In this document: in pieces, positions 60,522-63,664 of the stretch
Position numbering within the stretch: the stretch's first letter is position 1
Layout of the letters: the number at the start of each line of letters is the position of its first letter
Made by a program: the position numbers and the translations under genes
From: Enterobacteria phage RB33
DNA: 64,000 nucleotides
Sequence record: KM607001
Strand: one strand, 5' to 3'
The notes under the pieces: generated by a model
The model's input: the letters and a program-made list of their open reading frames with translations, nothing else
The model's database searches: none
What the model was told of the DNA's origin: nothing

Positions 60522-60735
60522 ATTTGACTTCCTCACCAGTACATAAATCGTATTCAACTAAACGAATAGGTTCATGAATGCCATATCCCTGAACAGAAAT
60601 TTCTGTCGTAGGATAAATTCCGTCAATATCACCCATATTCCACGCTTCATTAAATTGCTGTTCGCCTGAATTACTAAACCACTCGGCGAAAGCATTTAGA
60701 ACATCTTTAGAACCTTCAATAATTATCTTTGCCAT
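60514..60735 (-). CDS. hypothetical protein (vs.5 position)
   Basis: 73-aa ORF. Confidence 0.5.
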   Translation of the reverse strand: MAKIIIEGSKDVLNAFAEWFSNSGEQQFNEAWNMGDIDGIYPTTEISVQGYGIHEPIRLVEYDLCTGEEVKYD

Positions 60736-61097
60736 TACAAACTCTCGGTGAAGGTACGAGCGATAACGTCGCGCTGCTGTTCCGGAGTCAGAGAGTTAAA
60801 GCGAACTGCATAACCGGATACACGGATGGTCAGCTGCGGATATTTTTCCGGATGCTTAACTGCATCTTCCAGAGTTTCACGACGCAGAACGTTAACGTTC
60901 AGGTGTTGACCACCTTCAATTTTAACTGTAGGCTGTGGCTCAATTTCAATTTCACGGGCATGCAAACCATAGAAAATTTCTGGGTCTACAAAAGAGTCCT
61001 CTTTAAAGGTTTTAGAAACGATAATTCGTGCTTGAATACCATCTTCAAAATAAATAGTACCTTTATGTGTGCCTTCAAGAATTTGATATGCTTTCAT
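60735..61097 (-). CDS. GrcA/YfiD-like autonomous glycyl radical cofactor, 120 aa
   Basis: C-terminal ~60 aa ([55 protein letters not shown]) recalled as matching E. coli GrcA/PflB C-terminus. Confidence 0.8.
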
Positions 61098-61104
61098 ATA
61101 AACC

Positions 61105-61434
61105 TCAATTAGAAAATAAATTTATCCAAGATTGTTCTTTAATTAAAAATGGCTCAGAATCATATGCCATTAAACTTTGCGTAATTAATCCTTTAAAAGG
61201 TCCATCAATAAATTCCATGGTAAAATATGGAATTTTATTCATTAGCCGTGCATTAGGAGCCGTGCACAAAACTCTGCATCCTTTGAATACACCTTTTTGT
61301 AATTTGTATTGCTTGGGATAAAATTCGCTCAAAATGTTATTATTTGCTAAAATTTCAAAATGATTCACCAATTTATTTTTAATAGTTTTTGGCGAAAAAT
61401 AAAGATATTCGAAAAGCTGAGTGTCTGTCATCAT
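61105..61434 (-). CDS. hypothetical protein (vs.7 position)
   Basis: ORF in track; start moved to MMTDTQ. Confidence 0.45.
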
Positions 61435-61970
61435 TGCATTCCGATTACGAAAAACTGTGGACGAGTAATACCACCAATACAACATTTAATATTACAGCAG
61501 CAGTGTACAGTGTCAATATGGACACTATAAATCTTATCCATATCAGGAGATTTGACGGGCTCATCAATTATATACAAAATTCGCGAAAGCGATAAACCTC
61601 TGAACTTGCTTCCTTTATTACCAATAAAACTGCGCACAGAATCAGTAAATAAACGAAAACGTATATCATCATTAGAATAACGCGAAAATTCCTTTTTAAT
61701 GTTATTTGCAGAAATTTTAGCGTAAGCTGAAGTATTAGAAAGAACAATAACTGTTCCGCCATCATACAACCAATTAGCAGCAAAGTTAGTCACAGCAATT
61801 GATTTACCGGATTGACGTCCACCATCTAGTCGAAGTGTGCAATACTGTTTAAGTAAGTCTTCAAATGGTGGAATATAATCGTTTTTACAAATTTCTTCTA
61901 CTCTAGCATCAGAATGGTGTGTAAAAGCATTCATCAGGGATAGATAAGGACCAGTTAAAAATGTTCTCAT
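61431..61970 (-). CDS. P-loop NTPase-like protein (vs.8 position), ~179 aa
   Basis: Walker A-like GGRQSGKS and Walker B-like ILYIIDEP; start moved to MRTFLTG. Confidence 0.5.
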   Translation of the reverse strand: MRTFLTGPYLSLMNAFTHHSDARVEEICKNDYIPPFEDLLKQYCTLRLDGGRQSGKSIAVTNFAANWLYDGGTVIVLSNTSAYAKISANNIKKEFSRYSNDDIRFRLFTDSVRSFIGNKGSKFRGLSLSRILYIIDEPVKSPDMDKIYSVHIDTVHCCCNIKCCIGGITRPQFFVIGMQ

Positions 61971-62123
61971 TTTATTCTCTCTAGGTTTGGGCCATTCCAT
62001 GGCGCATGAATTGTCCATTTCTGTATTTACCCATTACCGCACTTGGGCTCGACCTTATTACAGGTTGGCGGGAATCCCTCACAGAATCATGAGGTCCAGC
62101 TTGTTCCCATATTTCTTATTTGC

Positions 62124-62597
62124 TTATTTGAATGATTTAACGTACTGAATAGAACCTTTACTATTCACGAAAGCGATTTTACCATTTTTATTATACATTG
62201 TAGCAGTACGTTGATAGCCATAAGTTTGTTTACCAGATTGATAACCAACTAATGCGAAATTATCTTCACCCATTTTATTCTGTTTAGCGCGAATACGTTC
62301 ATGACCATGTGCCATAAGAACCTTAGCATCACCGGTTGCAATGGATCGACGAGTTTTTTCATCTTCAACTGTATTAACAAAGTCGTCAAATGAATCAAAT
62401 TTAGCATGAGATTTATTATACAGTTTTCCATCTACTGCATAATTATATCCCTGTACATCCATCTCAACTTCTGTACCATCATCCAGTACAGCAGTGATTT
62501 TCTGTCCTTTTTTAAATTTCAAAAGATCAGTAAAAGATTCAGCAATAATTTGAGAATTAATAGCTGCTTCAGTAATAAATTCTTGATATGTTTTCAT
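62124..62597 (-). CDS. internal protein (IPII/IPIII family) with capsid-targeting N-terminus, 157 aa
   Basis: N-terminus MKTYQEFITEAA matches the internal-protein CTS as remembered; position before e. Confidence 0.6.
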   Translation of the reverse strand: MKTYQEFITEAAINSQIIAESFTDLLKFKKGQKITAVLDDGTEVEMDVQGYNYAVDGKLYNKSHAKFDSFDDFVNTVEDEKTRRSIATGDAKVLMAHGHERIRAKQNKMGEDNFALVGYQSGKQTYGYQRTATMYNKNGKIAFVNSKGSIQYVKSFK

Positions 62598-62657
62598 GTG
62601 TATCCTTTAAATGTAAATATTTTAATTAATAATTTATCTCTTCAAGTAACTGTGAAT

Positions 62658-62687
62658 ATACTATCACAATTCTAGAAGAAAGTAAAC
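62658..62687 (-). promoter_or_regulatory. T4-type early promoter upstream of the internal protein gene
   Basis: minus strand GTTTACtttcttctagaattgtgaTAGTAT. Confidence 0.5.
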
Positions 62688-62691
62688 AACT

Positions 62692-63664
<973 letters not shown>

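What the first reader, a model, noticed from the sequence alone, without database searches (positions are those of the whole stretch)
61971..62123. GC-rich structured noncoding island where T4 carries denV
About 150 bp between the vs.8-position gene and the internal-protein gene has no credible ORF on either strand and is much more GC-rich than the surrounding genome. It contains nested inverted repeats (GGGCTCGACC...GGTCCAGC, CCTCA-N8-TGAGG, GGGAATCCC). From memory, T4 has denV and ipII here and T2 lacks denV function. The island could be a deletion scar, a small structured RNA or a recombination hotspot.
Basis: partly seen in the sequence, partly recalled or inferred. Interest (0 to 1): 0.5.

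Follow-up and report, generated by a model that had tools for sequence, protein, structure and literature searches.

The report
New conserved structured phage RNA
The GC-rich gap between the internal-protein gene and vs.8 of phage RB32 holds a folded RNA element of about 80-120 nt that is also present in T4 and in many unrelated phages, often inside their tRNA gene arrays; it matches no catalogued RNA family and its function is unknown.

Summary
The window is phage RB32. The island is real: 45% GC against 34% for the window, with no conserved ORF.

It is not a denV deletion scar. T4 carries the same sequence between denV and vs.8, hidden inside an over-long vs.8 annotation.

The island contains a ~41-nt three-way junction (window 62069-62029, minus strand, which is the mRNA sense). 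It is preceded by a helix-plus-hairpin domain (62108-62070). In T4-like phages it is followed by a small hairpin (62003-61991).

The core is 90-100% identical in more than 1000 phage records. These include Tevenvirinae genera, rV5-like phages, Vibrio and Pseudomonas phages, a tRNA-less 44-kb siphovirus and a jumbo contig.

In 70 distinct sequences the closing helix P1 and the P3 hairpin covary. 89% of cells are paired, against 30-41% when the partners are slid. G.U pairs pick the sense strand.

Outside the T4-like phages, 25 of 42 loci have a same-strand tRNA within 600 nt.

No Rfam 15 family, tRNA, terminator or promoter matches. No bacterial copy was found.

Best reading: a new small RNA gene that acts by binding a conserved cellular partner. 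The partner and the function are unproven.

The parts
62104..62108 (-). H1 5' strand, GGGAA
   Evidence: Pairs with UUCCC (62074-62070) and is recovered by MFE. Compensatory variants seen by hand alignment and 80 outputs: GGGAG/CUCCC (L045), GGGG/CCCC (rV5-like), GGAAC/GUUCC (L048), GCGU/ACGC (L206), AAAGCUA/UAGCUUU (JD18). A helix flush with the 3' end appears in the MFE of 26 of 65 upstream segments, against 14 +/- 3.5 in shuffles.
62095..62103 (-). Asymmetric internal loop J, CAAGCUGGA
   Evidence: Semi-conserved across groups: CAAGCC, CAGCCAG, CAGGGUA, UGAACC. Its role is unknown.
62077..62094 (-).
   Evidence: The stem is kept while the loop changes in size and sequence: T4 GAUUAU, L045 AUAC. 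Other groups carry a different hairpin at the same position, for example CACAU-GACG-AUGUG and CAUG-GAAA-CAUG.
62070..62074 (-). H1 3' strand, UUCCC, directly abutting P1
   Evidence: See H1 5' strand.
62066..62069 (-). P1 5' strand, GCCA
   Evidence: Pair counts in 70 distinct sequences: 9:44 AU32 UA18 CG9 UG7 GC3; 8:46 CG48 GC10 UA5 AU4 GU2; 7:47 CG48 GC12 AU8. Each pair has at most 2 unpaired cells.
62052..62065 (-). P2 hairpin, ACCU-GUAAUA-AGGU, the most conserved block
   Evidence: C11, C12, U15, A19, A20, G21 and G22 are invariant in 70 sequences. The closing pair is AU67 GC2 GU1. Loop consensus is G-U-R-R-N-A. It is the only helix RNAalifold predicts de novo.
62049..62051 (-). Junction J2/3, CGA (consensus C-(N)-A)
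62039..62048 (-). P3 hairpin, GC-CCAAGU-GC (short variable stem-loop)
   Evidence: Stem variants: GC/GC, GU/AC, GG/CC, GUC/GAC, GCC/GGC, GUA/UAC, AGC/GCU. Pair 29:36 is CG54 UA10 GC2. More variants come from metagenomes: GGC/GCC, GA/UC.
62034..62038 (-). Junction J3/1, GGUAA
   Evidence: UAA is invariant and GG is at least 90% conserved.
62029..62033 (-). P1 3' strand, U(G)GGU, with a conserved bulged G at 62032
   Evidence: With the bulge, P1 pairs in every phage group.
61991..62003 (-). T4-like-specific 3' hairpin, GCCAU-GGA-AUGGC, 21 nt upstream of the vs.8 ATG
   Evidence: Conserved in Tevenvirinae with compensatory forms: NP4 GCCG..CGG(G)C, PM2 GGCA..UGCC. Absent from the other phage groups.
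61431..61970 (-). vs.8 (179 aa, unknown function), the gene downstream of the RNA in T4-like phages
62124..62597 (-). Ip4 internal virion protein gene (DUF7412), upstream neighbour

Best explanation
The island is RB32's copy of an uncatalogued, phage-borne structured RNA, read from the minus strand within the leftward early transcript that runs from Ip4 into vs.8.

Anatomy, 5' to 3':
- Helix H1 encloses an asymmetric loop and hairpin P0.
- H1's 3' strand runs straight into a compact three-way junction.
- The junction consists of P1 (3-5 bp with a bulged G), P2 (ACCU/AGGU capped by a G-U-R-R-N-A hexaloop) and P3 (a 2-3 bp variable hairpin).
- The junction strands C-(N)-A and GGUAA are nearly invariant.

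Shown:
- The sequence and these helices are under selection across unrelated phages.
- The structured strand is the mRNA-sense strand.
- It does not code for protein.
- It is single-copy, or a tandem pair, per genome.
- No copy was found in bacterial genomes, a limited test that used only the strictest form of the motif.
- Outside the T4-like phages it usually sits among tRNA genes.

Inferred:
- It is an RNA gene rather than an mRNA signal.
- It is cut out of the polycistronic precursor, as tRNAs and T4 species 1/2 RNAs are, to give a stable RNA of about 80-120 nt.
- Its invariant P2 and junction surface binds a conserved cellular partner. That partner could be a protein or RNA of the translation or RNA-processing apparatus, or an RNA-directed defence nuclease.
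- The RNA would then act as a decoy or modulator during infection.
For: - Conservation: the 176-nt island hits 1033 phage records and the 61-nt core hits 1061, across Tequatro-, Mosig-, Dhaka-, Jiaoda-, Karam-, Moon-, Winkler-, Gelderland-, Teguna-, Mosuguk- and Kanagawavirus, Vequintavirus, and Pseudomonas phage PsgM04F. Vibrio phages also carry it.
- Further members: a 359-kb contig and many 24-100-kb viral or metagenomic contigs.
- Structure: on 70 distinct sequences 89.0% of cells are paired, against 30-41% for slid partners. The covariation score is 0.411 against at most 0.10 for slid partners, and 0 of 500 shuffles reach it.
- Tandem second copies keep the architecture with P2 A-U changed to G-C and a different P3.
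- Strand: the G.U/U.G pairs in P1 and P3 would be A.C on the other strand. All neighbouring genes and tRNAs lie on the same strand.
- RNA-gene context: 25 of 42 non-T4-like loci have a same-strand tRNA within 600 nt. Some copies sit inside arrays, and some lie 45-55 nt after a tRNA.
- Intrinsic terminators follow the element about 30 nt downstream in L183 and L238 and about 90 nt downstream in L241. Sigma-70-like promoters follow it in the rV5-like and CCP1 groups.
- Independence from neighbours: the downstream feature differs by group (vs.8, an IP gene, tRNAs, a terminator or a promoter). EcoPhCCP1 has the RNA but no tRNA at all.
- No known family: Rfam 15 E-value scans of the island and of 8 homologous loci find nothing at the element.
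Against: - No transcript, 5'/3' end or stability data were available. Excision and trans action are inference only.
- In all Tevenvirinae except the Jiaodavirus-type the RNA lies directly upstream of vs.8, which also fits a cis-acting leader.
- Thermodynamics gives no support. MFE z-scores are about 0. RNAalifold recovers only P2. RB32's MFE prefers an alternative pairing for the 3' half: -21.3 kcal/mol against -12.5 for the proposed fold. P1 and P3 are therefore too short to stand alone and rest on covariation.
- P2 is almost invariant, so its pairing is supported by only 3 of 70 sequences. All members were found through patterns or BLAST anchored on P2, which is an ascertainment bias.
- No candidate partner was identified.
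Confidence: 0.5

Rival explanations
1. Cis-acting RNA-processing module: a new small self-cleaving ribozyme, or a dedicated RNase recognition fold, that cuts the polycistronic RNA between units (tRNA/tRNA, tRNA/mRNA, Ip4/vs.8).
For: - It is a small three-way junction with nearly invariant junction strands and variable stems, the pattern typical of small ribozymes.
- It is in sense orientation inside arrays of RNAs that must all be excised.
- It is independent of the neighbouring genes.
- Established knowledge: small ribozymes are common in phage genomes.
Against: - There is no match to hammerhead, twister, twister-sister, pistol, hatchet or HDV-like models at E<=10.
- The invariant P2 stem sequence is atypical for ribozyme stems.
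- No cleavage data exist.
- One copy per genome gives only one cut.
Confidence: 0.2
2. Cis-regulatory 5' leader of vs.8 (a riboswitch or protein-binding operator) in T4-like phages, reused before other genes elsewhere.
For: - It lies immediately upstream of vs.8 in nearly all Tevenvirinae, with an extra conserved hairpin and GGA motifs 20-60 nt before the start codon.
- In L183 the element plus a terminator precedes a Shine-Dalgarno sequence and a start codon.
Against: - In JD18 it precedes an IP gene instead.
- In other groups it is followed by tRNAs, by a terminator at the end of a tRNA operon, or by the promoter of the next unit.
- No conserved expression platform overlaps P1.
- No known aptamer class matches.
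Confidence: 0.12
3. Ordinary punctuation: an intrinsic terminator or mRNA-stabilising hairpin downstream of the IP gene, as annotated in vB_EcoM_SA21RB.
For: - The SA21RB record annotates a 'rho-independent terminator' over the P0/P2 region.
- The element follows a stop codon by 15 nt.
Against: - There is no U-tract, and the terminator scan finds none in 61300-62800.
- Terminators do not keep about 30 invariant nucleotides across unrelated phage families, nor a covarying three-way junction.
- Where real terminators occur (L183, L238) they are separate hairpins downstream of the element.
Confidence: 0.05
4. DNA-level feature: a denV deletion scar, a recombination or module-shuffling junction, or a protein-binding DNA site.
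For: The IP/denV cassettes immediately upstream differ between phages while the island stays put. It therefore lies at a boundary of modular exchange.
Against: - T4 and other denV-carrying phages have the element.
- Compensatory changes with G.U pairs on one strand indicate RNA.
- It is single-copy, unlike repeated shuffling cassettes.
- It is present in phage families that have no IP or denV genes.
Confidence: 0.04
5. Protein-coding: an N-terminal extension of Vs.8 (T4 219 aa; RB32 189 aa as annotated), or a small upstream ORF (PVIRSSPSAVMG...).
For: - T4's reading frame is open from the element into vs.8.
- One of the three sense frames is open through the core.
Against: - In RB32 that frame ends at TAG 61983-61981, before the vs.8 ATG.
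- The other two sense frames contain the invariant UAA triplets.
- Conserved blocks are separated by P3 segments whose lengths differ by steps of one nucleotide.
- Substitutions cluster in the P3 loop and are radical at the protein level.
- PHROG 1488 starts at MRTFL.
- The element occurs in tRNA arrays with no ORF.
Confidence: 0.02

Closest known systems
GOLLD and ROOL RNAs (large ornate phage/prophage ncRNAs; Rfam RF01998, RF03087; PMC5737381, PMC12286853)
   Same: Structured non-coding RNAs of unknown function carried by phages and typically located next to tRNA genes.
   Different: Those RNAs are 400-800 nt, occur mostly in Firmicutes and rumen phages, and form multimeric cages. This element is about 80-120 nt with a 41-nt core. 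It occurs in phages of Gammaproteobacteria, and no Rfam model matches it.
T4 stable RNAs species 1 and 2 (rnaC, rnaD)
   Same: Small phage RNAs of unknown function, co-transcribed and co-processed with tRNAs. This is the model for how the element could be excised.
   Different: They lie at a different locus (T4 70.9-71.2 kb against 64.9 kb). The covariance model finds nothing in the rnaC/rnaD/tRNA region.
Small self-cleaving ribozymes found in phage genomes (hammerhead, twister-sister, pistol, hatchet, HDV-like 'theta')
   Same: Similar size. Multi-helix junction with invariant junction nucleotides and variable stems. Phage and tRNA-proximal contexts.
   Different: No model matches. The conserved core sequence is unlike any of them. 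Catalysis was not tested.
23S rRNA GTPase-associated centre, H44 hexaloop GUAAUA (1093-1098), and 16S rRNA 1497-1506 GUAACAAGGU
   Same: RB32's P2 loop is identical to the H44 hexaloop, and GGUCGAG also follows it in 23S rRNA. The C-variant of P2 shares a 10-mer with the 16S rRNA 3' domain in 20 of 70 sequences. The invariant U...A in the loop fits a T-loop-like fold (from memory, not tested).
   Different: The loop position that creates each identity varies among U, A and C in homologues. The helix order differs from the GTPase-associated centre. Model R2 scores the whole rrn operon at noise, at most 5 bits with E about 5. This is a resemblance, not homology.
Anonymous 'csRNA' candidates from IMG/VR (PMC10690425, 10,006 candidate structured RNAs in viruses)
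   Same: Same kind of evidence (comparative covariation in viral contigs). The element may be among them.
   Different: The paper names no T4-like or vs.8 motif and its sequence tables were not available. No paper in the library contains the core sequence in an RNA-motif context.

Membership tests
tRNA / tmRNA | Cloverleaf detectable by ARAGORN or Rfam RF00005 | tested here: not met
   ARAGORN finds 0 genes in the window. In the homologous loci all tRNA hits lie outside the element.
Any Rfam 15 family (4227 models, including all small ribozymes, riboswitches, GOLLD, ROOL, C4, YrlA) | cmscan match at or near the gathering score | tested here: not met
   Island plus flanks at E<=10 give only two snoRNA chance hits outside the core. 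Eight homologous loci at E<=1 give nothing at the element.
Intrinsic (rho-independent) terminator | GC-rich hairpin followed directly by a U-tract | tested here: not met
   No site in 61300-62800. P0 is followed by GAUUCCCGCC.
Sigma-70 / T4 early promoter cassette (PeSL-type promoter plus stem-loop) | -35/-10 hexamers with 16-18 nt spacing inside the element; multiple copies per genome | tested here: not met
   No promoter-like site in 61971-62123. There is one copy in the 64-kb window.
Protein-coding sequence (Vs.8 N-terminus or small ORF) | Open frame with a start codon kept across homologues; indels in multiples of three | tested here: not met
   TAG closes the frame in RB32. P3 segment lengths differ by single nucleotides. 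PHROG 1488 begins at the short start.
denV deletion scar | Sequence absent from genomes that retain denV at this locus | tested here: not met
   T4, FJ1, JS98, Merlin, PM2 and TG1 have both denV and the element.
Conserved structured RNA (generic criterion) | Helices kept through compensatory changes beyond controls | tested here: met
   P1 pairs show 3-5 pair types and are at least 97% paired. P3 29:36 is CG54/UA10/GC2. The covariation score is 0.411 against at most 0.10 for slid partners, and 0 of 500 shuffles reach it. P2 is supported only weakly (3 of 70). RNAalifold alone recovers only P2.
T4 species 1/2 stable RNAs | Sequence and structure similarity to rnaC/rnaD | tested here: not met
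   cmsearch with filters off on T4 69.5-74.5 kb gives a best score of 7.6 bits.
rRNA mimic (23S GTPase-associated centre or 16S 3' domain) | Model-level similarity to the rRNA segment; the identity-making nucleotides conserved in the family | tested here: not met
   R2 on the rrnH operon scores at most 5 bits. Loop position 5 is U, A or C across the family.
Self-cleaving ribozyme (as a function, not a named class) | Site-specific self-scission in vitro | not testable with these tools
   Needs a transcription and cleavage assay.
Riboswitch | Ligand-dependent structure coupled to an expression platform upstream of a consistent gene class | tested here: inconclusive
   Downstream features are heterogeneous, which argues against this. 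Ligand binding is not testable here.

The most novel reading that the evidence does not exclude
The element is a new functional RNA class, either a catalytic (self-cleaving) fold or a high-affinity decoy for a conserved host factor such as a tRNA/rRNA-directed defence nuclease or a translation factor. It would be present in T4 itself, hidden under the vs.8 annotation, and spread horizontally among lytic phages of Enterobacterales, Vibrio and Pseudomonas as part of their RNA-gene islands.
Probability: 0.3. Interest if true: 0.9.

Novelty: categorically new. Interest (0 to 1): 0.75.

Why it matters
T4 is the most thoroughly annotated phage, yet this element sits unnoticed inside an over-extended ORF annotation. 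A roughly 40-nt core kept almost letter-for-letter across phage families that share no genes implies a strong, general selective demand during infection of Gammaproteobacteria.

It adds a small, tractable member to the unexplained group of phage RNAs that live in tRNA arrays (GOLLD, ROOL, T4 species 1/2). Unlike those, it can be knocked out and tested in T4 on E. coli.

Practical consequences:
- The vs.8 start codons in the T4 and RB32 records should be corrected.
- The 'terminator' annotations over the element should be removed.
- Covariance model R2, or a refined version, can annotate the element in more than 1000 phage genomes.

Tried and rejected
1. Known RNA families. Rfam E-value scans of the island and of 8 homologous loci, and ARAGORN, all found nothing.
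2. Thermodynamic signal. z-scores are about 0 on both strands. RNAalifold on A2 predicts only P2. The first P3 register (a 5-bp CGAGC/GYGCG stem) was abandoned because divergent members break it. A 2-3 bp stem with C-(N)-A / GGUAA junctions fits all members.
3. P1 without a bulge gave only 70% pairing. With the bulged G it is 97-99% for the three inner pairs.
4. Host origin. No match in 5,426 E. coli genomes. The 116 pattern hits in 185,579 species genomes all lack the extended motif. That number is what chance predicts for 16 fixed bases in 596 Gb. That scan used only the strictest form of the motif, so divergent bacterial copies are not excluded.
5. Hammerhead-like reading of the T4-like 5' domain (CUGAGUGA...GAAC). 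The spacing is wrong and there is no Rfam hit.
6. Homology to T4 rnaC/rnaD: none.
7. rRNA mimicry (16S 1497-1506; 23S H44): real short identities, but not conserved in the family and not seen by the model.
8. Pseudoknot between the P2 loop and the 3' tail (GUAA/UUAC, with one compensatory GUGA/UCAC in L177). It is present only in some T4-like and Vibrio-type groups, so it is not a family feature.
10. Partner-protein search by neighbourhood. Vs.8, Ip4 and the rV5-like downstream ORF share no family.
11. Literature. Nothing on vs.8/denV RNA, no paper containing the core sequence in an RNA-motif context, and the 2023 viral csRNA catalogue's tables were not held.

Full report

The window is Escherichia phage RB32, at 100% identity over 1301 nt. 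Window position equals record position plus 119.

All genes here are on the minus strand. Their order is e lysozyme, Ip4 (62124-62597), the island, vs.8 (61431-61970), then vs.7 to vs.3 and regB.

The island 61971-62123 is exactly the Ip4-vs.8 gap.
- It is 45.1% GC, with a core (62029-62108) of 53.7%. The window is 34.4% GC.
- Only 0.9% of 153-nt windows are as GC-rich.
- The quoted repeats are all present.
- Folding energy alone is unremarkable, with z = +0.14 and -0.45 on the two strands.
- No sigma-70 promoter or intrinsic terminator is detected in the island.

2. NOT A denV SCAR

T4 has the same sequence.
- In record X04567 it lies between denV and 'ORF 64.0'.
- In NC_000866 it is buried in a 219-aa vs.8 annotation.
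- It scores 67.6 bits with my covariance model.

Phages with denV nearby (vB_EcoM_FJ1, JS98, Merlin, PM2, TG1) have the element too. What varies is the IP/denV cassette upstream. The element and vs.8 stay fixed.

No denV homologue occurs in the 64-kb window.

3. CONSERVATION FAR BEYOND T4-LIKE PHAGES

- The 176-nt island matches 1033 phage records. A 61-nt core matches 1061.
- About 44 nt (62029-62072) are 86-95% identical in rV5-like Vequintavirus and 92% identical over 38 nt in Pseudomonas phage PsgM04F.
- Pattern scans of IMG/VR and of metagenomes add several groups:
  - a 120-140-kb group;
  - 46-70-kb contigs;
  - a 44-kb siphovirus group (EcoPhCCP1);
  - a 359-kb jumbo contig;
  - several 24-100-kb groups.
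- One of these groups matches Vibrio phages.
- E. coli genomes have no match.
- The 116 pattern hits in species-representative bacterial genomes all lack the extended motif. That number is what chance predicts.

4. STRUCTURE

I collected 70 distinct sequences. The architecture, written in RNA sense (the window minus strand), is:

[P1 5']-N | R-CCU-(G-U-R-R-N-A)-AGG-Y | C-(N)-A-[P3 hairpin]-GG-UAA | N-(bulged G)-[P1 3']

Pair counting:
- 89.0% of cells are paired, against 30-41% when partners are slid by 1-3 columns.
- The covariation score is 0.411, against at most 0.10 for slid partners, and 0 of 500 shuffles reach it.
- P1 pair 9:44: AU32 UA18 CG9 UG7 GC3.
- P1 pair 8:46: CG48 GC10 UA5 AU4 GU2.
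- P1 pair 7:47: CG48 GC12 AU8.
- P3 pair 29:36: CG54 UA10 GC2. Many whole-stem variants exist, such as GUC/GAC, GCC/GGC, GG/CC and GUA/UAC (more).
- P2 is almost invariant, with a closing pair of AU67 GC2 GU1.

Tandem second copies occur in Karam/Kanagawa-like phages and in L223. They keep the plan with different P2-closing and P3 sequences.

The G.U pairs identify the minus strand as the folded strand.

Caveats:
- RNAalifold on its own recovers only P2.
- RB32's MFE prefers another pairing for the 3' half.
- P1 and P3 are therefore short helices that rest on covariation.
- Every member was found through P2-anchored searches.

Upstream domain. Helix H1 encloses an asymmetric loop and hairpin P0, and its 3' strand abuts P1.
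- In RB32, H1 is GGGAA 62108-62104 paired with UUCCC 62074-62070. P0 spans 62094-62077.
- The same topology recurs with different sequences: GGGAG/CUCCC, GGGG/CCCC, GGAAC/GUUCC, GCGU/ACGC, AAAGCUA/UAGCUUU.
- A simple MFE test gives modest support: 26 of 65 against 14 +/- 3.5 in shuffles.

T4-like phages add a 3' hairpin, GCCAU-GGA-AUGGC (62003-61991), which has compensatory variants.

5. NOT CODING

- Two sense frames contain the invariant UAA triplets.
- The third frame is closed by TAG in RB32.
- Conserved blocks are separated by segments whose lengths differ by single nucleotides.
- PHROG 1488 aligns from the short Vs.8 start.
- The element occurs in tRNA arrays without ORFs.

6. CONTEXT

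- In 25 of 42 non-T4-like loci a tRNA gene lies within 600 nt on the same strand. Examples:
  - inside arrays: PsgM04F, L231, L233;
  - 45-55 nt after a tRNA: L205, L238;
  - upstream of arrays: the rV5-like group, L019, L036.
- The element may be followed by an intrinsic terminator, about 30 nt downstream in L183 and L238 and about 90 nt downstream in L241. In the rV5-like and CCP1 groups it is followed by the next promoter.
- EcoPhCCP1 has one copy and no tRNA in its whole genome. The tie to tRNAs is therefore one of location (RNA-gene islands), not of necessity.
- In Tevenvirinae the element sits in the early region rich in internal-protein genes, which vary between phages.

7. COMPARISON WITH KNOWN ELEMENTS

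- Nothing in Rfam 15 matches. That covers all small ribozymes, riboswitches, GOLLD and ROOL.
- T4 rnaC and rnaD are unrelated.
- Short identities to rRNA are real: 16S 1497-1506, and the 23S H44 GUAAUA loop with GGUCGAG. They depend on a loop position that varies in the family, and the model scores the rrn operon at noise.
- No paper in the library contains the core sequence in an RNA-motif context.
- A 2023 catalogue of 10,006 anonymous viral RNA candidates may include the element, but this could not be checked.

8. INTERPRETATION

Shown:
- It is a selected, sense-strand, non-coding RNA structure.
- It is single-copy or a tandem pair per genome.
- It was found only in phage records and viral or metagenomic contigs, and is shared across unrelated families of Gammaproteobacteria phages.
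- It usually sits among RNA genes.

Inferred (about 0.5): it is an RNA gene. Its product would be excised like tRNAs and would act through its invariant P2 and junction surface on a conserved cellular partner.

Rivals:
- cis-acting ribozyme or processing module (0.2);
- vs.8 leader (0.12);
- terminator or stabiliser (0.05);
- DNA-level feature (0.04);
- coding (0.02).

9. VERDICT

Its 'structured RNA' option is right. Its denV-scar framing is wrong.

The element appears to be a new RNA class. It is present in T4 itself and its function is open.

Noticed in passing
window 61968-62018 (and T4 NC_000866 64253-64912): The vs.8 start codon is annotated inconsistently. RB32 starts at window 62000 (189 aa). 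T4 is annotated as 219 aa, covering the whole RNA. Most relatives start at the equivalent of 61970 (179 aa). The PHROG 1488 profile supports the short form.
   Followed up: yes
L003 2168-2195 (vB_EcoM_SA21RB), equivalent to window ~62067-62094: The record annotates a 'rho-independent terminator' over P0/P2 of the RNA. There is no U-tract, and my scan finds no terminator.
   Followed up: yes
window 62124-63186 versus L002, L003, L006, L008, L009: The IP/denV cassette between e and the RNA is reshuffled among relatives. RB32 has Ip4 only; FJ1 has denV + Ip4; SA21RB has ipIII + Ip4; T4 has ipIII-ipII-denV; in JD18 the RNA lies between two IP genes. The RNA and vs.8 keep their place throughout.
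   Followed up: partly
L004 1364-1462; L010 362-460; L040 1714-1812; L234 270-367: The rV5-like tRNA arrays contain a 98-99-nt ARAGORN 'tRNA-???' with a four-base anticodon (atcc). It could be a frameshift-suppressor-like or degenerate tRNA.
   Followed up: no
L178 9535-9610: A 70-kb viral contig carries a tRNA with a CUA anticodon (an amber suppressor, called 'Pyl' by ARAGORN), in the same array region as the RNA.
   Followed up: no
L034 5093-5139 and 5204-5252; L186 9019-9067 and 9133-9179; L200 1248-1296 and 1386-1432; L223 828-877 and 914-962: Tandem duplications of the whole RNA unit, including the 5' domain, with diverged second copies. These were useful for covariation and hint at dosage or sub-functionalisation.
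   Followed up: partly
L004 ~2560-2620; L048 ~60-80 and ~195-215: A box GAGGGCUUGAWAGUGC lies upstream of the RNA in the rV5-like and L048-group contigs. It recurs downstream in the L048 group. It is unexplained.
   Followed up: no
window 61991-62020: The T4-like 3' extension carries two GGA motifs: AAAUGGACA, and the hairpin loop AUGGAAU (in relatives ACAUGGAUGA). These resemble CsrA binding sites. This rests on memory of the consensus and was not tested.
   Followed up: no
L332 1768-1777 (16S 1497-1506) and 23S 1093-1112: E. coli 16S GUAACAAGGU equals the C-variant of the P2 hairpin. The 23S H44 loop GUAAUA followed by GGUCGAG resembles the RB32 variant. The covariance model sees no homology.
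   Followed up: yes
window 60735-61097: vs.6 is annotated in relatives as an autonomous glycyl-radical cofactor (GrcA-like). The vs.3-vs.8 block downstream of the RNA consists mostly of small proteins of unknown function.
   Followed up: no
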